From NCBI GenBank assembly GCA_965215885.1, contig CBDCEW010000105.1:288001-352000 (forward strand): a stretch of 64,000 bases of DNA, written 5' to 3'. Position numbers and translations under genes: made by a program. A model generated the notes under the pieces. That model had not been told where the DNA came from. It searched no databases and was given only the letters and a program-made list of their open reading frames with translations. This document shows positions 27,751-40,460 of this stretch, piece by piece. Numbering within the stretch: the stretch's first letter is position 1; each line of letters starts with the position of its first letter. The DNA comes from Candidatus Moanibacter sp. Its GTDB lineage: Bacteria; Verrucomicrobiota; Verrucomicrobiia; Opitutales; UBA2987.

Positions 27751-27961
27751 GTGGGCCGGGCAGATCCGACTGCTCGATGGTGATGTTAACATCAGAAAGG
27801 AAATGACACATGAAGTAAACAAAGTCCAGACCCAGCCCGATCAGCTGACCTGTCCGACGTAGCCTTGGCGAAGTTGGGACCGCCACTTACGGCATGCCAC
27901 CGTCCCGCTGGGTAGGATCCTTCAGGGCGAAGACGGACCCCTACATCCCGCTCAGCGGGAT
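27751..27961 (+). mobile_element. Group II intron remnant, copy A (~210 nt), in attC 27700-27750
   Basis: GTGGGCCGGGCAG start directly after attC ...CCGGTT; first ~90 nt match copies B-D; partial DV ACCGCCACTTACGG; 3' end uncertain. Confidence 0.7.
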
Positions 27962-28832
27962 CACGGCCTAAGCCGTTCGAGTGGTGGTCTAGAAGTGGCG
28001 TCCTTTTACCGTTGGATTGTAGGGCTTTAGTTCCAATTCCCTCGAGTCGAAAAGTAATGCGCTGAATTTTCTCGACAGCGATCGGCTTGCCTTCACTCCA
28101 GGCAGGACGGTAGATCGATTGTAAGACGGCTTTCAACGCTGGATCCTCAAATTCGGTATGCGATGAACTCTTAACCGCAATTCTTGCGACCGTCCCTAAC
28201 TCGTTAATTCGAATATGTATTGCAACGGATCCCTCAACTCCCTTCCTCTTTAATTCGAATGGATACACAGGCATTGGCATAAATAATCGTCTCGGTTCCA
28301 GAATTTCCTCTTGTCTAAGAATGTATTCATCGATCACTGGTTTCGTGTTGATGCTACCAAATTTGACTTTACTCAATAGCGCGTGAGTGACGACGTCTGC
28401 CATTGAAATGCGTTCTCTGATTTCATGGTCCTTAAAGTAGCTAACCAGAGGTGAATCAGATTCTGATAGCCAATTTTGAGCGACCCAATCGGAGATACAG
28501 AGAAACTCCATTCCGAATCGAACAAATCGATAATATTCGAGTTCTGAAAATCGCATTTCGCCGGGAAAAAATCGACTATTCGTTTTCCAATACCTGAGAT
28601 CCTTAAGAAGGGAGCGCGGAAGAGATCTCCGAAGCTGGCGCACGGCTTCGGTGATATTCCGAGGAATTTCGTTCTTCAATGCCGGAGGTTCTGCAGAGAC
28701 CATTGATAACTCGAAACAGCCGTCTCCGACGTTGGAGTGCACCGCGTTTGGGATGACAGTGGAGCACAGGAAAATCATCAGTGCTTTTCGCAACCACCTT
28801 CCGGGTCGACTTCCTCGTGCTACATCTTGCAT
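27792..28832 (-). CDS. TonB C-terminal domain protein (cassette); frame reads through the attC
   Basis: PVYPFELKRKGVEGSV...INELG.V...SS...FEDPALKAV...YRPA..EGKP; inverse core GTTGGAT at 28011-28017. Confidence 0.75.
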   Translation of the reverse strand: MQDVARGSRPGRWLRKALMIFLCSTVIPNAVHSNVGDGCFELSMVSAEPPALKNEIPRNITEAVRQLRRSLPRSLLKDLRYWKTNSRFFPGEMRFSELEYYRFVRFGMEFLCISDWVAQNWLSESDSPLVSYFKDHEIRERISMADVVTHALLSKVKFGSINTKPVIDEYILRQEEILEPRRLFMPMPVYPFELKRKGVEGSVAIHIRINELGTVARIAVKSSSHTEFEDPALKAVLQSIYRPAWSEGKPIAVEKIQRITFRLEGIGTKALQSNGKRTPLLDHHSNGLGRDPAERDVGVRLRPEGSYPAGRWHAVSGGPNFAKATSDRSADRAGSGLCLLHVSFPF

Positions 28833-28901: not shown

Positions 28902-31486
28902 GTGTGCCGGGCAGATCCGACTGCTCGATGGTAATGTTAACATCAGAAAGGAAATGACACAGGAGGTAAACAAAGTCCAGAACCAGCCCGATGGAGGCGA
29001 AGGTTAGCCAATGGCAAGAGTATCACAGCGATGTGGGCTCGGAGGAAGCCGGAGGCAAAGACGCGTGCTGACGAACAGGTATGCCCCGCACCGGAAACGG
29101 TGGAGGGCAGGCAGATGAGGCGGGGGAAGACTGGGACGAATCTGCAACACAAGATGAAGTCCTCTATCCATCAGAGAGTTGACCCACGTAGATCTGATCC
29201 CGCTGAGCGCATACGCGTTAACTTAAGGAGAAGAAACAAGAGAGGAAATCAAGTCGAGAACGCTTTTCATAGGTGCAGTGTTTGGGGATTTGTTTGAGCC
29301 ATCGGGGGATGATCTGATCTTTGGGAAGGTGAGAGAGGATGAAGAAGTAGGGAGCAAAGAAGCCAAACCAGTAGGAGAATTTAAGGATACTCAGAGGAGA
29401 GGACAAACTGGTATTCGAATAGTGTCTAAGGGGACCATAGACGAAGTTGAGTAAGTGGGTAATGAGGATGAGACGGGCGTAGATAAGAAGCTCAACCTGG
29501 TAGGGAGTAGTCTCTTTGACCTGACCGAGATTAAGATGTTGCTTAAAGGCCTTGAAGAGAATTTCGATGCGCCATCCCGCTCAGCGGGACCGTAAAAGCT
29601 CAGAATCTGCTTAGGGCTAAAGTCTTTCTGATGGAGGTTGGTAATAAAGATTTGGAAACCGAGAAGGAAGCTGGTGCGGCTGGTATATCGAAGTCTATTG
29701 TCGCGGTTTTTTCTATGCTTGTGGCGGCGTTTATGGGCCACCTTCTGAGGGAGTTTGACGGCGATCAGACGAACCGGAAGCTTGGCTTTTTTACCCACCC
29801 GAACGGGCATATCGAGAAGCTTTTGGCCACGTAAAAGTTTGCGTAGATCGAGCTCTTCATCGCCTTCGTTGGCTAAAAGGCAAGTGCCGGTTTTCAAACG
29901 ACTCACAAAGAAGCAGCCGCGCTGATCGAGTTGCTTAAAGAGGTCGAGGACAAAATAGCCTAAGTCGCGCAGGATCAGGTCGTTGGGTTGAGCAACAGCG
30001 AGAATGTCCTTGGAAGCAGCCTGATCGTTTTTTCGGAAGCTTGAGAGGCTGAAGTCCACGAAGGATTCATTGCGCAAATCGTAATAAGCCTGGATCTTAA
30101 GTTGAGCCTGCTTGGAGCCTGTCTGATTGGAGGCTCCGGGGAAGAAGGGGGCGAGGGCCTTAGGCAAGCCAATCGAAGTGCTGTCGACAATGAGAACCCG
30201 TTCAAAGCTCCTCATGCAATTTGGAACAGCTCTGCCCACAGGCCCATAAGCTTTAAGTTCCAGAAGCTTCAGGAGCACTAAGGTCATAAAAGCGGTGGCT
30301 TTTTTGGCGCACTTTTGGACCGCTTGTCTGGAAATGGTGCGGTTGGCTAAGAATCCAATAAGCTCGGCTTCTTTGCCAAGGGACAAGGCCCCCTTAGAAG
30401 CCATCGCCAGCAAAGCCAAAACAAAGTTCAGTGGGGAAATCTTGCGCGATTTCCTCTCTCTGAAACCACTCTGTTTAGCGAGGGCTGTGAGGTTCAACTT
30501 ACGGAAGGTTTGACGGATACAATCAGCTTTTTTATACTTTGTATCCGAAGGATAAATCCTATATATGAACGAATGTACAGTATAAAATGCTGCCAAAGTG
30601 AAAAAAATGGGGGTAGACGGTAAAAGTAGAGAAGATAACCCGGTCAAAATGCACTCGCTCAACTGCGAATTTCCTCACCGCTGTGGTCGAAACGAAGCAA
30701 ATAGAAAAGGGCGAACAAATGGAGTGGAACCTCGAGGATAGAGACACCCTCATACTCCGCCGCAAAATACCTCGCAAGTCTTTGAATCTGACTAAGTTGC
30801 GAAAATAAGGTTGACGCGTATGCGCTCAGCGGGATGCGTCGAAAGTAGTCGGAGTAACCCCGGGAGAGCCGCTATGTCTTCTTTGTTTGAGGAGTGAGCA
30901 ACCCGCAAGGGGAGCCCAGCGCATAGCGGCAGTCAGCCGAGGGCATAAGAGTCGTAGAGGAAACGAGCCGGGAGTAGTCGCCGATCCACGGCGTGCCGGG
31001 ATCCGACGAAGAATCCGGAGGACTCACCCCGACAAAGGCCCGAACGGTGCCTTGTGCCGAAGGGCACAGGTAAATGAGAGTGGCAAGTAGGAAGAGCGAC
31101 TAATGAACTCATTGCAGCAGTCCAGCTCAGAAGAGTTTGTTGCGTCGCGAATATCCCAAAGCCCGACAGGACGGATCCGGCTCTTGGAGAGTATCCCGGA
31201 GCGGAAGAACATGCAGCGCGCGCTGCACTTTGCCCGCTACGTCGAGGACTGTGTCATCTTCGTCCGAAGCGAGCGGGGAGGGAAACGGGTGATGGAATTT
31301 CCCGTCATTCGGGCTCGTCTTCCCCTGGACCCGATCCTGCCCTGATCAGCCGAAGCGTCTCCCCGCCACTGATCAGCCGAACCGCCACTTACGGCATGCC
31401 ACGGCGAAGCCCTTCAGGGCGAAGACGGGACCCGTACGAGTGGTGGTGTGGGAGGGGCGCCCCGCGAGGGGCGTCCCTCCCCCGAT
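28902..31486 (+). mobile_element. Miniature group IIC-attC intron, copy B, interrupted by an IS4-family element
   Basis: GTGTGC 5' end after attC GTT; ...CCCGAT 3' end followed by GGGC, restoring GTTGGGC; RT remnant LHFARYVEDC. Confidence 0.88.
29210..30822 (-). mobile_element. IS4-family insertion sequence; transposase frameshifted near 29580
   Basis: IRs CATACGCGTTAAC / GTTGACGCGTATG; ORF 29391-30662 with IVDSTSI, LRDLGYF, FFVSR; Y..RW.IE..FK signature broken by a hairpin. Confidence 0.88.
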
Positions 31487-34027: not shown

Positions 34028-34117
34028 GGCGAACGCTGGAACGCAGGCATGCCGGCCAATTGGCTTCACTCTGAAACGGCGGCACAAACCGGCATTGCCT
34101 GGCGTGATTTGTTAGGT
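34028..34117 (-). other. attC site (90 bp)
   Basis: GGCGAAC...GTTAGGT; stem CAGGCATGCCGG / CCGGCATTGCCTG. Confidence 0.87.
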
Positions 34118-34372
34118 GCTTGTTTTTTTCTTTTCGATCGCTTCTTTTCCAATGATCAACCAACCCCTACGAGTCGAGTATATCAGGATCGCGGTTAAAA
34201 ATAGGGGCAGGCCCGTGATGTAAACGAGATAGGCACTCAATGTCCTAATTTTTTCCCATTCTGTCGGCTCAAACATCAAAATGGCCACCCCCATCGCGAA
34301 AATGCAGACATAGAGGCCGAAAAACAGATTCTCCGCTGGCGAAACATGTCTGTGTTCTGTTCCGGACTTCAT
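34112..34372 (-). CDS. Small two-TM hypothetical protein (cassette)
   Basis: Fills the cassette; stop codon lies in the inverse core ACCTAAC. Confidence 0.7.
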   Translation of the reverse strand: MKSGTEHRHVSPAENLFFGLYVCIFAMGVAILMFEPTEWEKIRTLSAYLVYITGLPLFLTAILIYSTRRGWLIIGKEAIEKKKTST

Positions 34373-34383
34373 GGAATCTCGCT

Positions 34384-34442
34384 ACCTAACGTTAAAGCGC
34401 TAAGACGGCGGCACCTGCCGCCGTTCTAAGGAGCGTCTGGTT
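34384..34442 (-). other. attC site split by tandem introns (last 4 nt ATAC at 35900-35903)
   Basis: ACCTAAC...ACGGCGGCA-cc-TGCCGCCGT...GGTT|intron. Confidence 0.85.
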
Positions 34443-35357
34443 GTGTGCCGGGCAGGACCGACTGCTTAATGGTGAAGTTAACGTCAGAAGGAAATGACAC
34501 ATGAAGTAAACAAAGTCCAGACCCAGCCCGATGGAGGCGAAGGGTAGCCGATGGCAAGAGTATCGCAGCGATGAGGGCTCGAAGGAAGCTGGAGGCAAAG
34601 ACGCGTGCTGACGAACAGGTATGCCCCGCACCGGAAACGGTGGAGGGCAGGCAGATGAGGCGAGGGAAGACTGGGACGAGCCTGCAACACAAGATGAAGT
34701 CCTCTATCCATCAGAGAGTTGACCCGCGTATATCTGACGGTGGTGCGTCGAAAGTAGTCGGAATGACCCCGGGAGAGCCGCTATGTCTCCTGATTTTCAG
34801 GAGTGAGCAACCCGCAAGGGAAGCCTACCGCATAGGGGCAGTCAGCAGCCTGTCCTCCGAAGCTCGGAGAGCGAAGGACGGGAGGGCATAAGAGTCGTAG
34901 GAAACGAGCCGGGAGTAGTCGCCGACGGGAAACCCGTCCGACGACGAATCCGGAGGACTCACCCCGACAAAGGCCCGAACGGTGCCTGTGTCGAAGGGCA
35001 CAGGTAAATGAGAGTGGCAAGTAGGAAGAGCGACTAATGAACTCATTGCAGCAGTCCAGCTCAGAAGAGTTTGTTGCGTCGCGAATATCCAAAAGCCCGA
35101 CAGGACGGATCCGGCTCCTGGAGAGTATCCCGGAGCGGAAGAACATGCAGCACGCGCTGCACTTTGCCCGCTACGTCGACGACTGTGTCATCTTCGTCCG
35201 AAGCGAGCGAGCAGGGAAACGGGTAATGAAATTTCCAGTCATTCGGGAGCGTCTTCCCCTGGACCCGATCCTGCCTGATCAGCCGAACCGCCACTTACGG
35301 ACCCGTACGAGTGGTGGTGTGGGAGGGGCGCCCCGCGAGGGGCGTCCCTATCCCGAT
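34443..35357 (+). mobile_element. Miniature group IIC-attC intron, copy C (915 nt); DV and DVI look intact
   Basis: GTGTG 5' end; DV GAACCGCCACTTACGGACCCGTACGAGTGGTGGTGTG; DVI GGGGCGCCCCGCGAGGGGCGTCCCTATCCC with bulged A; AT 3' end; RT remnant RYVDDC. Confidence 0.92.
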
Positions 35358-35899
35358 GTGTGCCGGGCAGGACCGACTGCTTAATGGTGAAGTTAACGTC
35401 AGAAGGAAATGACACATGAAGTAAACAAAGTCCAGACCCAGCCCGATGGAGGCGAAGGGTAGCCGATGGCAAGAAGCATCCCACGGGAGTGGGATGCTAC
35501 GAAGAATCCGGAGGACTCACCCCGACAAAGGCCCGAACGGTGCCTGTGCCGAATGGCACAGGTAAATGAGAGTGGCAAGTAGGAAGAGCGACTAATGAAC
35601 TCATTGCAGCAGTCCAGCTCAGAAGAGTTTGTTGCGTCGCGAGTATCCAAAAGCCCGACAGGACGGATCCGGTTCCTGGAGAGTATCCCGGAGCGGAAGA
35701 ACATGCAGCGCGCGCTGCACTTTGCCCGCTACGTCGAGGACTGTGTCATCTTCGTCCGAAGCGAGCGGGGAGGGAAACGGGTGATGAATTCCCATCATTC
35801 GGGCTCGTCTTCCCCTGGACCCGATCCTGCCTGAGCAGCCGAACCGCCACTTACGGACCCGTACGAGTGGTGGTGTGGGAGGGGCGTCCCTATCCCGAT
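35358..35899 (+). mobile_element. Miniature group IIC-attC intron, copy D (542 nt), head-to-tail with copy C
   Basis: Begins GTGTGCCGGG right after CCCGAT of copy C; further internal deletion near 35475; DVI shortened. Confidence 0.9.
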
Positions 35900-35930
35900 A
35901 TACCTCCAATTCGGTAGCCCTGTTCTGAAA

Positions 35931-36745
35931 TCAATCCCGATTAGCCTCGATCCACCCTACAGCGAAGTCGACTAGTTCGCATTGTGGAAAGAGAACCGAT
36001 ACAGCGTAGCCCACTTTGCCTCGAACGACTTGGTTTGATGCACTTTCGTATGCCTGCCCAATCTGTGGAAAGTCATCCGAGCATGAGTCAATGTCCGAAA
36101 ACTCGGTCCAATAGGTGGCTCCGTCTCGGGAGATGGGCGCTCCATGCCTTACTATTTGTTTGGATGCGAAGCTTGCCCGAAACTCCGCCAGATGAAGCGA
36201 GGAATTGGAATCGTGTCCCACACCGATCAAAAGAACGCTTCCTCCACTTTCGTAGACCCTCGCCAGCGGCGATTGCTCGCCAAACGAACTTTCCAAAGCG
36301 TGGTCGCTGGTTACAAAGTCAGCTCTTGGACCGGAAGCAGCAAATGAAACGTGGGGGTGGTTGCTGCGCACCACGCTGTCCGCGCCTCGAAAGCACTCAG
36401 GGATTGCGCCCATACCCCGTGTGGGAGTGAACGGTCAAACGCCGGCATTGTTCGACGTATTGTTGGCCACCAAGTCGGATCGACTGGAGGATTACTCCAT
36501 CCTGCAGGATCGGTTAGGCCGCCCGAGTGAGTGGGCATTACCAATGTTCCCTTTGGTCCAAGTGCGCTTAGGAGAGCGTTGACGACCGCCACGGGACCGC
36601 CGGCGACCCAGCCGATCGAGCTGAGAGACGAGTGAACCAGCAAGGTCATACCATCCGTTACTCCCAGTTGGGTCAAGTCGCACACGAGGCGGTCCTGAAT
36701 GACCGGACCCGCGATCGAGTTACTGATGACATCTCGCTCAGTCAC
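35931..36745 (-). pseudogene. AAC(3)/YokD-family acetyltransferase, frameshifted near 36432
   Basis: LVHSSLSSIGWVAGG, GTLVMPTHS, then in another frame TPTRGMGAIPE, RSNHPHVSF, LIGVGHDSNSSLHLAE. Confidence 0.88.
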
Positions 36746-36767
36746 TGAAGACCCTTTAATCCTGTAC

Positions 36768-36830
36768 GTATAACGATCGGTCTCACACGCGGCGGCGTTA
36801 GCCGGCGTTGTGTGAAGACACTGGTTATGC
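36768..36830 (-). other. attC site (63 bp)
   Basis: GTATAAC...GTTATGC; stem GTCTCACAC / GTGTGAAGAC. Confidence 0.87.
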
Positions 36831-37136
36831 CTTCGCCGTGGCCATAGAATGAACCTCCGATGCAATCTTCTTTCCGACCTCCCGCTCGGCCACTTCGAGA
36901 TCGTGTTCTCCTTGAAGCCCAACCCAGAATTCCGCCGTAGTCCCAAAGTATCTTGAGAGCCGCAAGGCGGTTTCAGCCGTAATCGATCGACGACCTTTTA
37001 CGATTTCAGTGATGCGCGAGGCCGGAATTCCGGTTTCGCGTGCCAACTGAGCTTGGGTTAGGCCCATCGGCTTGATGAACTCTTCGAGGAGGATCTCCCC
37101 CGGAGGAATAGTTGGTAAGCGATTTTTCTGCTTCAT
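36825..37136 (-). CDS. higA: HigA antitoxin (HTH-XRE)
   Basis: PPGEILLEEFIKPMGLTQ..LA...RITEIVKGRRSITAETALRL..YFGT..EFW.GLQ. Confidence 0.93.
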   Translation of the reverse strand: MKQKNRLPTIPPGEILLEEFIKPMGLTQAQLARETGIPASRITEIVKGRRSITAETALRLSRYFGTTAEFWVGLQGEHDLEVAEREVGKKIASEVHSMATAKA

Positions 37137-38760: not shown

Positions 38761-39086
38761 CTCCTACCATCGACATTCCTTTCCTAAGCTCAGGTTTCAT
38801 GCGGCTTGGAGTCGATACAAGCCTTAAATATCACCAAGGTTTCCGTACGACGCAACCATGAATTATCCGCCGACAGAAGCTTCACTCGAAAACCTTCAGG
38901 AGGTTGTCGATTCCGGCCAGAAGGCAAATGCTATACTCGGTCGTGGATATTATCCTTCATGCACCGTGCCGCTAAGGCCTACTGCTCGTCTGTATGTTGT
39001 TGGGTGGCAGTGACTAATCACTCTGTGCAAGTGTCGGCATGGAGATTATCCCAACTGCAGAACCTCAACTGAGTGGCGCATAACAC

Positions 39087-39108
39087 TTGACAACGGGAAC
39101 AAATGTTC
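39087..39108 (+). promoter_or_regulatory. Candidate intI promoter -35 with a GAAC-N4-GTTC palindrome (possible LexA box)
   Basis: TTGACA 39087-39092; GAACAAATGTTC 39097-39108; ATG at 39125. Confidence 0.5.
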
Positions 39109-39124
39109 ACTGTGTGGTTGTCCA

Positions 39125-39938
39125 ATGAAAATCGTGCATTTCCCGCGCTGGGCGGAGATCCTGGAGCGTTCTGATGTCGACTCCCGTACGAGAGAATTCT
39201 ATCTCATTACCATCCGCTGGTATCTATCATGGTGTACGAAGGCAGGGCTCGCAGCAACTAATCGATCCGCCCAGGAATTTGTCGAGTGGGCTGCTCGCGA
39301 GAGATCCTCATCTGAAAGGACCGTAGCGCGATGGAAAGAGGCAATTCGCTGGTTTTTCGCCAACGGTGAGCGAAGGGAGATTCCAACCGATGGATTTGGA
39401 GCGGGGTCAGGTCGTTGTTCGATGCGGGAAGGGCGACAAAGACCGGATAGCTCCAATGCTAAAAGTTCTGGAAAAGGAGCTTAGAACGCATATGGATCAA
39501 CTGGCTGAGACGTTCGAATCTGATCGGGCGAGGCATCTTCCAAGAGTCTTCCTTCCGGGCGGCCTTGAGCGCAAATTCCCAAGGGCAGGGATCGAATGGG
39601 CATGGCAGTGGTTCTGGCCCAGCCGGGAACTCAGCATCGACTCAAGGAGTGGGATTAAGCGCCGGCACCATGTGCAACCGAACCACAATCAAGCCGCAAT
39701 CAAGCGTGCGGCACAAAATGCCGGCATCGGGAAGAGAGTGACCAGCCATGCCCTCCGCCACTCATTCGCCACGCACCTGTTCGAAGGCGGGGTGGATATC
39801 CGCACCGTTCAGGATTTATTGGGCCATGCGCATATCGAAACCACGCAGATCTATCTGCATGTAATGACTAAGCCCGGTGCGGGTAGTCTCAGCCCCTTGG
39901 ATCTGATGGCGTATTGTGCCGAAGGGAAAGAAATGTAA
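39125..39938 (+). pseudogene. intI: Integron integrase with internal deletion/frameshift
   Basis: GKGDKDR, integron-specific insert [12 protein letters not shown]...WAWQWFWPS...[32 protein letters not shown]; box I (G.R) absent; N-terminal part in another frame. Confidence 0.92.
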
Positions 39939-39959
39939 ACTCGTGGCGCTCCGCTCCTC

Positions 39960-40460
39960 AATTTCTAGGAATCTCAATGGTCATCATCGGAAGCCGCTTC
40001 GGTCCCATCGAAGGAGGTGGTGCAACCCTCATCGTCAGGTTAACTGAAGGTCTGAAAAATCACCTCGGGTCCTTGGGATCAACCGCAAAATGGTCTTTTC
40101 AAATTGGAGCTTGGAGCGCGATTTTCAGCAGTCTCCCGGGTGTCTGGCAAAGCGTCCCCTACCTTTTCGCCGATTTCTGGCAACTGCGAAAGATCCAATG
40201 GCAGAGCGACACCCGCTTTTCCGTAAGCACGACATCGAGGCCTTATAACGCCTATCTACTAACCATCGTAATTAGGTGGTGCATTGCGATCATCACAACA
40301 GCAAGAGCAAGGCCCATCGTATGACAGGTCCGGAGCATGGAAAGCCTTATGAGGTGGTATCGGCTGATTAATGTTTTGCTGGCTATACTCACGACGTCAT
40401 CCGCCGTTTCGCAGTCTTCGGGGGTGACTGCTAACACTTCTAACACGGTCGCCGGTAACG
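39960..40460 (+). pseudogene. Fragments of a membrane transporter gene (possibly Nramp-like)
   Basis: GAWSAIFSSLPGVWQSVPYLFADFW; no intact start or end. Confidence 0.4.

What the first reader, a model, noticed from the sequence alone, without database searches (positions are those of the whole stretch)
34440..35903. Two introns stacked head-to-tail in a single attC
Seen: copy C ends ...CCCTATCCCGAT at 35357 and copy D begins GTGTGCCGGG at 35358 with no spacer; the attC halves GTT (34440-34442) and ATAC (35900-35903) flank the pair. C keeps full DV and DVI, while D has an extra internal deletion and a shortened DVI. Inference: a second insertion hit the 5' exon/intron junction of the resident copy, so an occupied attC stays a target. 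That fits recognition of the upstream hairpin rather than the 3' exon.
Basis: partly seen in the sequence, partly recalled or inferred. Interest (0 to 1): 0.7.

Follow-up and report, generated by a model that had tools for sequence, protein, structure and literature searches.

The report
Two decayed introns stacked in one attC
Two broken copies of a self-inserting RNA element (group II intron) sit exactly end to end inside one gene-cassette recombination site, most likely because a second copy landed at the front edge of the first, which is a natural example of behaviour already seen in the laboratory.

Summary
C (34443-35357, 915 nt) ends CCCGAT and D (35358-35899, 542 nt) starts GTGTGCC with no spacer. 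The pair splits GTT|ATAC at the R'' end of one attC bottom strand, antisense to the cassettes of a chromosomal integron. Both copies lack a reverse transcriptase.

C keeps a full ribozyme. D lacks 381 nt of DI-DIII, replaced by a 24-nt hairpin, and has a DVI shortened by 14 nt.

C and D are not a simple local duplication:
- D's deletion plus hairpin is shared with copies in other attCs of another genus.
- In the 3' ~400 nt, D groups with copy B (96% bootstrap).
- The first 117 nt of C and D are identical (100% bootstrap), so D is a mosaic, probably through gene conversion.

All 10 copies examined follow a hairpin plus (T/G)GTT, or GGGT in one, and the first 3'-exon base varies (A, G, C).

One metagenome contig (L098) carries the same tail-to-head joint between RT-encoding copies. 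A 2025 paper shows tandem integration of a IIB1 intron at the 5' edge of a resident copy.

Best reading (about 0.6): iterative retrohoming into an occupied attC, with C the newcomer mobilised in trans. The order of events and read support for the joint in the source sample are not shown. Interest is moderate.

The parts
34385..34442 (+). attC bottom strand, 5' part: ACCTAAC (complement of R'), an imperfect hairpin, then ...TGGTT. This is the 5' exon with IBS1 (GTT).
   Evidence: Sequence. DNA fold of the upstream 75 nt gives -15.5 kcal/mol. The start codon of cassette ORF 34112-34372 (-) lies 13 nt away.
34443..35357 (+). Copy C: an ORF-less group IIC-attC-type intron of 915 nt with a complete ribozyme (GTGTG...GAT).
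   Evidence: Rfam RF02001 at 34562-34762.
34686..34689 (+). Candidate EBS1 (AACA) in the terminal loop of the DId hairpin. It pairs with (T)GTT of the 5' exons.
   Evidence: The loop position comes from the Rfam alignment. The 5' exons of 10 copies end in (T/G)GTT, or GGGT in one. The pairing itself is inferred.
35037..35384 (+). Remnant of the intron-encoded RT ORF (115 aa, keeps YVDD). It runs across the C|D joint and is non-functional.
   Evidence: ORF list. No Pfam family at E<=0.01. The internal deletions are visible against L027 and L098.
35287..35318 (+). Domain V of C.
   Evidence: RNA fold, z -5.84 for DV plus DVI together.
35320..35355 (+). Domain VI of C: a long stem with a bulged UA. 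The candidate branch-point A is at 35350, 8 nt from the 3' end.
35358..35899 (+). Copy D: a 542-nt defective 'D-type' derivative. It consists of the 5' 117 nt, a hairpin, DIV with the RT remnant, DV and a short DVI.
35475..35498 (+). D-type-specific 24-nt hairpin that replaces 381 nt of DI-DIII. It occurs only once in this genome and is shared with L023 and L027 of genome G006.
   Evidence: (z -6.85).
35843..35874 (+). Domain V of D, identical to that of C.
35876..35897 (+). Shortened domain VI of D, with a 14-nt deletion between GGGGCG repeats.
35900..35903 (+). attC bottom strand, 3' part: ATAC, the rest of the R'' complement GTT|ATAC. This is the original 3' exon.
35931..36413 (-). Cassette ORF whose attC is split by the introns. 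It is the C-terminal part of an AAC(3)-like acetyltransferase; the N-terminal part lies in the overlapping ORF 36311-36946.
   Evidence: Pfam PF02522; NCBIfam NF033082, below cut-off.
39366..39938 (+). Integron integrase, C-terminal part only (positions 139-314 of 315 of TIGR02249).
   Evidence: 214.8 bits, whole-protein cut-off 265; PF00589.

Best explanation
Two separate insertions of related non-autonomous group IIC-attC-type introns went into the same attC.

The family recognises the folded attC bottom strand plus a 3-4 nt IBS1 ((T/G)GTT) and cares little about the first 3'-exon base. After a first intron (the ancestor of D) inserted at GTT|ATAC, the hairpin and GTT were still intact. The next base was now the G of the resident GTGTG.

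A second intron RNA (C) has a complete ribozyme but no ORF, so it had to be carried by a reverse transcriptase supplied in trans. It reverse-spliced at GTT|G and was copied into DNA. That gives the exact order attC-left | C | D | attC-right.

Later, or during repair, the first 117 nt of the two neighbours were homogenised by gene conversion. D is now a dead remnant. It has no DI core and a short DVI, and it carries the 'D-type' deletion plus hairpin that circulates in this intron family by recombination.

Shown: the anatomy, the exact joint, the target features, the mosaic phylogeny, and an independent tandem joint elsewhere.

Inferred: reverse splicing as the cause, the order (C newer), the RT acting in trans, and gene conversion.
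For: - The joint is exact at canonical ends...GAT|GTGTG....
- All 10 copies examined (A, B, C, C80, C2, L014, L021, L023, L027, L029) follow a hairpin and end their 5' exon in (T/G)GTT, or GGGT in one case.
- The +1 bases are A (the C/D site and L014), G (B) and C (C80, C2, L023, L027).
- A candidate EBS1 (AACA) lies in the DId loop.
- D's hairpin and deletion end points are the same as in L023 and L027, which sit in different attCs of another genus. The hairpin is absent from C, B and L098 apart from a chance 9-mer in an ORF.
- In the 3' segment, B-D differ at 11 of 396 positions, B-C at 14 of 412 and C-D at 15 of 396.
- B and D share derived states at 4 or more positions where C agrees with all three G006 copies.
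- The ML split {B,D}|{C,L014,L021,L023} has 96% support from 200 bootstraps.
- The ORF deletions of C are shared by B, D, L014, L021 and L023 at different attCs. The C-like matches of 87% identity in G063 are roughly as long as the stretch of C they match. This is what an ORF-less form that itself spread would leave.
- L098, a 1832-nt metagenome contig, carries the same joint between a copy with an intact maturase C-terminus and a copy with intact DI-DIII and 258 open RT codons.
- In run X4, a 384-nt contig of a relative (12 differences) runs from 35003 to 35387, which is 30 nt past the joint.
- Laboratory precedent: the delta-ORF and full-length EcKTE56.groEL IIB1 intron integrate in tandem at the 5' exon/resident-intron junction through an EBS3(U)-IBS3(G) wobble (PMC12584367, passages).
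Against: - The first 117 nt of C and D are 100% identical. They share 3 states found in none of 9 other copies, and the (C,D) clade has 100% bootstrap. At the 3' divergence the chance of zero differences is 0.011. An extra event (conversion) must therefore be assumed, and the tract ends exactly at D's deletion point.
- D as it stands could never have inserted by itself, so its history needs a further assumption.
- No cognate RT is in the 90%-complete assembly. The only 2 RVT_1 hits are 36-38% identical to the family's RT.
- EBS3 was not identified.
- No other tandem joint was found in 401 genomes of the order (only the top 2 candidates per genome were scored).
- None was found among 52 matches in five copy-rich genomes.
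- None of the 63 pattern hits in species-representative genomes is a real joint.
- The window comes from a 105-contig assembly, and the displayed Logan contigs of the likely source runs do not show a piece that bridges 35357|35358.
Confidence: 0.6

Rival explanations
1. Local DNA-level tandem duplication of one resident intron. The downstream copy then diverged, was deleted internally, and was converted by other copies.
For: The 5' 117 nt are identical, with 3 states unique to C and D and a 100% bootstrap clade. Recombination among copies is clearly frequent in this family: the DI deletion, the RT deletions and the DV-loop insertion assort independently.
Against: A duplication whose end points fall exactly on both intron termini has no obvious DNA mechanism. 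D's 24-nt hairpin is not present in C but is present in G006 copies. In the 3' ~400 nt D is sister to B, not C, at 96%. The site patterns are 12:0 (CD|B: BD|C) in the 5' part against 5:9 in the 3' part, Fisher p = 0.0007.
Confidence: 0.13
2. A single integration event made a concatemer. During cDNA synthesis the RT jumped from the 5' end of one intron RNA to the 3' end of a second one, so both copies arrived together.
For: End-to-end template switching is a stated property of group II intron RTs (PMC3683930; only the start of the abstract was seen, in the listing). It would also give an exact tail-to-head joint.
Against: The reverse-spliced molecule would be the downstream one (D), which lacks DI. 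The upstream attC|C joint is as exact as a reverse-splicing joint, whereas a jumped cDNA would need repair joining there. There is no direct evidence.
Confidence: 0.1
3. Assembly artefact. The assembler threaded a repeat twice or joined reads from different copies or strains, so the stack does not exist in any one cell.
For: The genome is a 105-contig assembly with 5.5% contamination. The copies share a 117-nt exact repeat and about 400 nt at 96%. The displayed contigs of X1-X3 break inside the introns.
Against: A joint k-mer cannot be invented without reads that hold it. Both outer junctions are covered by contigs in X1, X2 and X3: attC into C at 34200-34471/34513, and D's 3' end into the flank from 35857/35870. 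The same kind of joint occurs in L098 and in an X4 contig from other samples.
Confidence: 0.1
4. The order is the reverse: D (or its ancestor) inserted at the 3' end of a resident C, using C's DV/DVI hairpins as the stem-loop.
For: IIC introns accept many stem-loops, and DVI is a strong GC hairpin just upstream of the joint.
Against: The 5' exon would then end in CGAT, which pairs poorly with the candidate EBS1 AACA. Nine of the 10 examined sites end in GTT. D has no EBS1 at all.
Confidence: 0.03

Closest known systems
Group IIC-attC introns (S.ma.I2 of Serratia marcescens and relatives)
   Same: Inserted in the bottom strand of attC at its R'' end, antisense to the cassettes. Short IBS1 after a stem-loop. 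The IEP has RVT_1 plus GIIM and no endonuclease domain (PMC3001079 and PMC7923331, passages).
   Different: The published consensus is TTGT/T (PMC7923331). Here the cut is after (T/G)GTT, one base further along if the GTT triplets are equated, and +1 is A, G or C. All copies in this genome have lost the ORF. Two copies share one attC. Placement of the RT inside the IIC-attC clade was not tested.
[quoted passage not shown]
   Same: The second copy enters exactly between the 5' exon and the first G of the resident copy. The delta-ORF form mobilised in trans does this more often (22.4% against 4.2%). The diagnostic tail-to-head joint is the same (passages).
   Different: That case is a bench result at a protein-gene stop codon with long EBS/IBS pairings and a known EBS3 = U. 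Here it is a natural, old, decayed pair of a IIC-type intron at a DNA hairpin target, and EBS3 is unknown.
ORF-less bacterial group II introns mobilised in trans (Thermosynechococcus family, PMC2882425)
   Same: Ribozyme-only derivatives share one set of ORF deletions at several sites, implying spread with a relative's RT.
   Different: For that paper I saw only the search listing. Here no cognate RT is left in the assembly.
Twintrons (nested group II introns)
   Same: An intron landing on a site already occupied by an intron gives a 'perpetual homing site' (PMC4424553, passages).
   Different: A twintron is an insertion inside another intron. Here the newcomer lies beside the resident, at its boundary, and neither interrupts the other.
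Circularly permuted group II RNAs (PMC8637638)
   Same: Across the C|D joint the order is DV-DVI followed by the start of DI, the order that defines CP group II RNAs (passages).
   Different: D lacks the DI core, so no permuted ribozyme can form here. That paper's passages do not discuss a tandem origin.

Membership tests
Group IIC-attC introns | Inserted in the bottom strand of an integron attC, opposite to cassette transcription | tested here: met
   The cassette ORFs on both sides are on the minus strand and the introns on the plus strand. An integron-integrase fragment lies at 39366-39938. RYYYAAC...GTT frames the site.
Group IIC-attC introns | Insertion at R'' in the consensus TTGT/T (IBS1/IBS3) | tested here: inconclusive
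   Nine of 10 5' exons end in (T/G)GTT and one in GGGT. The +1 base is A, G or C, never T, in the 8 sites with a readable 3' exon. The position is at R'' but shifted by one base from the published consensus (PMC7923331).
Group IIC-attC introns | IIC ribozyme: GUGYG...AY ends, small DI with a 3-4 nt EBS1 and no EBS2, DV, and DVI with a bulged A | tested here: met
   For C: the ends are, the RF02001 hit of 59.3 bits with the loop holding AACA, and the DV/DVI fold. Absence of EBS2 is inferred from the hairpin target. For D the feature is not met, because the DI core is missing.
Group IIC-attC introns | IEP belongs to the monophyletic attC subset of class C and lacks the En domain | tested here: inconclusive
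   RVT_1 plus GIIM, with the protein ending about 45 aa after GIIM in L098 and L027. Best plasmid relatives are 55-60% identical ltrA genes. No tree with reference class C-attC IEPs was made.
Tandem retrohoming products (as for EcKTE56.groEL) | Exact 3'-end|5'-end joint with the 5' exon intact upstream of the first copy | tested here: met
   also L098.
Tandem retrohoming products (as for EcKTE56.groEL) | EBS3 able to pair with the G that starts the resident intron | not testable with these tools
   EBS3 could not be located without a 3D-informed structure model. Indirect evidence: copy B sits before a G at an ordinary site.
Twintron | One intron nested inside another | tested here: not met
   Both copies have their own complete termini and lie side by side.
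Circularly permuted group II RNA | DV-DVI followed by a functional DI-DIV in one transcript | tested here: not met
   The DI that follows C's DVI is cut after 117 nt.

The most novel reading that the evidence does not exclude
The stack is a snapshot of a layered parasitism inside integrons. A family of ORF-less mini-introns is mobilised in trans and re-uses attC sites that are already occupied. It includes a DI-less, hairpin-capped 'D-type' form that has reached at least three different attCs in two genera. That form would have to be moved or spliced with ribozyme parts supplied by a neighbour or in trans, as in group III or trans-spliced introns. The tail-to-head joints (DV-DVI next to DI) would be the raw material from which circularly permuted group II ribozymes arise.
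Probability: 0.08. Interest if true: 0.75.

Novelty: new variant of a known kind. Interest (0 to 1): 0.42.

Why it matters
The stack gives natural support to the idea that, for hairpin-targeting (IIC) group II introns, an occupied site is still a site. Arrays of attCs can then accumulate introns in stacks, pushing a cassette gene further from its recombination site.

It also shows that decayed, ORF-less copies of this family recombine freely. Deletions, a DV-loop insert and 5' ends are shuffled among copies. Copy-by-copy phylogenies of such elements are therefore mosaics and can mislead.

For integron biology, the 1.46-kb stack separates an AAC(3)-like cassette ORF from the body of its attC and lies antisense to it. 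Its effect on cassette excision and expression could be tested.

Tried and rejected
- My own attC finder gave only unconvincing hairpins. I replaced it by folding the 75 nt upstream of each copy.
- Rfam at E<=10 found no DV/DVI family hit in C or D. DV and DVI rest on folds and alignment.
- The junction pattern in genome contigs gave 63 loci, and 0 of 63 show any similarity to C at E<=1e-4. These are chance matches of a GC-rich 18-mer.
- The junction pattern with up to 2 mismatches in 5 genomes gave 20 places. Ten were fetched as loci and checked; 1 of the 10 (L109) is intron-related, and it is an ordinary attC|intron joint.
- The 160-nt junction query found a match spanning the joint only in G000.
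- Read laying listed no piece in X1-X3 that bridges 35357|35358. The X4 piece falls one letter short of the tool's 31-letter rule. Holes in contig cover are not evidence either way.
- I looked for EBS3 by matching +1 bases to DI positions. The copies with C at +1 all lack DI, so there was no result.
- The plasmid hit H13 was checked for an integron context and has none.
- The search of earlier findings by place returned nothing.
- Three papers were not held: PMC6082379, PMC1871835 and PMC2714756. Together with Quiroga & Centron 2009, these are the papers most likely to mention natural IIC stacks, and I could not read any of them.
- Six full-text searches gave no report of two group II introns in one attC.

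Full report
**Setting**

The window is G000:C105:288001-352000, from a 6.36-Mb assembly of 105 contigs (90.3% complete, 5.47% contamination).

Between about 25300 and 38900 lie small ORFs on the minus strand. To their right, ORF 39366-39938 (+) matches the integron integrase model TIGR02249 over positions 139-314 of 315. It scores 214.8 bits, below the whole-protein cut-off of 265 because only the C-terminal part is in this frame. This is a chromosomal integron with its cassettes read leftwards, so the plus strand of the window is the bottom strand of the attC sites.

**The observation**

Four copies of one element lie on the plus strand:
- A: 27751 to about 28012.
- B: 28902-31486, interrupted by an IS at 29197-30835.
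- C: 34443-35357.
- D: 35358-35899.

The 22-nt 5' motif is found 4 times against 0.00 expected, and the 19-nt 3' motif 3 times against 0.01 expected. C ends ...CCCGAT at 35357 and D begins GTGTGCC at 35358 with nothing between. Before C stands ...TGGTT and after D stands ATAC.

With the pair removed, the sequence reads ACCTAAC - imperfect palindrome - GTT|ATAC. This is a 62-nt attC bottom strand. It lies between the start codon of ORF 34112-34372 (-) and the end of the AAC(3)-like ORF 35931-36413 (-).

**What the copies are**

C is a group II intron RNA gene.
- Rfam's D1-D4 model hits 34562-34762 with 59.3 bits.
- The ends are GUGUG...AU.
- The last 74 nt fold into a DV helix and a long DVI with a bulged UA, z -5.84.

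Its ORF is a 115-aa wreck that keeps YVDD but matches no Pfam family. Full-length relatives show what was lost. L027 (genome G006) and the metagenome contig L098 encode RVT_1 plus GIIM proteins that end shortly after the maturase domain, so they have no endonuclease domain.

D shares C's first 117 nt. A 24-nt hairpin then stands where C has 381 nt (34560-34940; most of DI, plus DII and DIII). After it come the same RT wreck, an identical DV, and a DVI shortened by 14 nt. D cannot be a ribozyme.

**Target**

I folded the 75 nt upstream of 10 copies as DNA: A, B, C, C80 and C2 in G000, and L014, L021, L023, L027 and L029 in G006. Each has a hairpin that ends a few bases before the insertion point. 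The 5' exon ends in (T/G)GTT in nine of them and in GGGT in one.

The loop that the Rfam alignment places at the tip of the DId hairpin holds AACA, a plausible EBS1. The pairing is inferred.

The first base of the 3' exon is A (this site and L014), G (B) or C (C80, C2, L023, L027). The family therefore shows the known IIC-attC habit:
- bottom strand of attC (PMC3001079, passages);
- a stem-loop in place of IBS2;
- the R'' end of attC (PMC7923331, passages).

The cut comes after GTT rather than in the published TTGT/T, and there is no fixed IBS3. After one insertion, everything the family seems to read is still in place upstream. Only +1 changes, to G, which copy B tolerates at an ordinary site.

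**Are C and D one event or two?**

B was aligned with its IS sliced out. In the B/C/D alignment, 537 columns hold all three.

- The first 117 columns have 12 sites of pattern CD|B and none of the other two patterns.
- I set aside columns 476-511, the non-homologous hairpins.
- The remaining columns have 9 BD|C, 5 CD|B and 6 BC|D sites, one of the last at the edge of the DVI deletion.
- The contrast 12:0 against 5:9 gives Fisher p = 0.0007.
- In the 3' segment, pairwise differences are B-D 11 of 396, B-C 14 of 412 and C-D 15 of 396.

With three G006 copies as reference, B and D share derived bases at four or more positions where C keeps the state of the G006 copies.

An ML tree of the 3' segment used 6 copies. 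I left out A, C80 and C2 as too short, and L027 and L098 because they carry the ORF or are incomplete. It gives the split {B,D}|{C,L014,L021,L023} in 96% of 200 bootstraps.

A tree of the first 117 nt used 11 copies. I left out C2, which keeps only 7 nt, and L025, which my pattern did not pick up. It gives (C,D) in 100% of 200 bootstraps. C and D share three states seen in none of the other nine copies.

D is therefore a mosaic. Its head is C's, its body is B-like, and its deletion plus hairpin is that of L023 and L027 in another genus, which sit in different attCs with different flanks. The hairpin occurs once in G000 and is not in C, B or L098.

More widely, four features assort independently among copies: the DI deletion, the RT deletions, a 33-36-nt insert in the DV loop, and the 5' variants. 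The 5' ends cluster by genome rather than by type. That is the mark of frequent recombination or gene conversion within the family.

A plain local duplication of C does not explain D. An exact joint at two canonical intron ends is what reverse splicing makes, and no DNA recombination route I can think of makes it.

**Independent cases and precedent**

A scan of 241 million metagenome records for the joint gave one locus, L098.
- Its left 462 nt are the end of an intron with an intact maturase C-terminus.
- Then comes the same CCCGAT|GTGTGCC joint.
- Then follows a copy 96.4% identical to C over 615 aligned nt, with 258 open RT codons up to the contig end.

L098 is either a stack of two RT-encoding copies or the cycle that such a stack makes in an assembly graph. 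Either way, reads with the joint exist there.

At the bench, the IIB1 intron EcKTE56.groEL integrates in tandem exactly at the junction of the 5' exon and the resident intron. Its delta-ORF form does so in 22.4% of integrants against 4.2% for the full-length form. The authors explain this by an EBS3(U)-IBS3(G) wobble with the resident intron's first G (PMC12584367, passages).

**How rare is it?**

- None of the 63 pattern hits in 185,579 species genomes is a real joint.
- In 401 genomes of the order, 13 have matches to a 160-nt query across the joint, but only G000 matches across it. Only two candidates per genome were scored.
- In five copy-rich genomes there were 52 matches. All first-look candidates were scored in four of them and 40 of 49 in G063. 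None spans the joint, and by their coordinates no 3'-end match abuts a 5'-start match.

Stacks are therefore uncommon among assembled genomes, though repeats of this kind are often lost from assemblies.

**Weak points**

- The source assembly is fragmented.
- Contigs of runs X1-X3 cover both outer junctions (34200-34471/34513, and 35857/35870 onwards). The listing showed no piece across 35357|35358.
- The assembly holds no cognate RT. The two RVT_1 hits are 36-38% identical to the family's RT.
- C's nearest relative in the genome differs by 3-4%, so the event is not recent.
- The identity of the two 117-nt heads ends exactly at D's deletion point. That is a coincidence under simple gene conversion and hints at a more tangled history.

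**Literature**

Six full-text searches gave no report of two group II introns in one attC. The review PMC4424553 has no occurrence of 'tandem'.

The key subscription papers on IIC and IIC-attC targeting could not be read, so I cannot say that it is not in print.

That is a different arrangement.

**Verdict**

The feature is real and correctly described. D is a member of a distinct, shared, defective sub-type rather than a locally decayed twin. And the two heads were homogenised after or during the event. It is a natural variant of a known behaviour, and of moderate interest.

Noticed in passing
window 29197-30835: An IS with a 423-aa DDE_Tnp_1 transposase (29391-30662, minus strand) and terminal inverted repeats of about 22-30 nt sits inside DI of copy B. 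B lacks 8 nt that C has at that point, and no target duplication is evident.
   Followed up: partly
window 27945-27961 and 29574-29589: A 17-nt palindrome that looks like the two IS end repeats joined back to back lies inside copy A's DV-loop insert and again inside the IS itself. It may be an excision footprint or a mini-derivative.
   Followed up: no
window 31394-31429 (B), 27892-27975 (A); G000 C80 and C2; L023, L027: A 33-36-nt (longer in A) GC-rich insert in the terminal loop of domain V is present in A, B, C80, C2, L023 and L027. It is absent in C, D, L014, L021 and L098. It assorts independently of the other deletions.
   Followed up: partly
window 38900-40324: Only positions 139-314 of the integron integrase model are found in one ORF (39366-39938). 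The neighbouring ORFs 39125-39484 and 39914-40324 match no family, so intI looks truncated or frameshifted.
   Followed up: partly
window 35931-36946: The AAC(3)-like acetyltransferase next to the stack is split over two overlapping minus-strand ORFs: model positions 3-90 in 36311-36946 and 96-261 in 35931-36413. This is a frameshift or an assembly error. I only described it.
   Followed up: no
G000 C80:62819-63106; C2:22526-22888 (minus strand); C5:14132-14179: Further mini-copies of the same intron family lie in other attC-like sites of the genome. One of 287 nt starts ATGCG instead of GTGTG. One keeps only 7 nt of the 5' end plus the maturase tail. One is a 48-nt fragment.
   Followed up: partly
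G000 C92:55900-57800 (L011) and C37:53820-54509 (L012): These are the only two intact RT genes of the assembly. One is a group II intron with GIIM of another class (38% identical to this family's RT). The other is an RT without a GIIM hit (36%).
   Followed up: partly
G063 (same order, other family), e.g. C3:5411831-5412457: This 7.2-Mb genome holds dozens of matches to the family (35 to the 160-nt junction query). They include C-like copies at 87% identity whose length suggests the ORF-less form. The mini-introns are spread over at least two bacterial families.
   Followed up: partly
window 27751-28012: Copy A starts GTGGG rather than GTGTG, and its 3' end has decayed so far that the exact end and the attC remainder could not be placed.
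   Followed up: no
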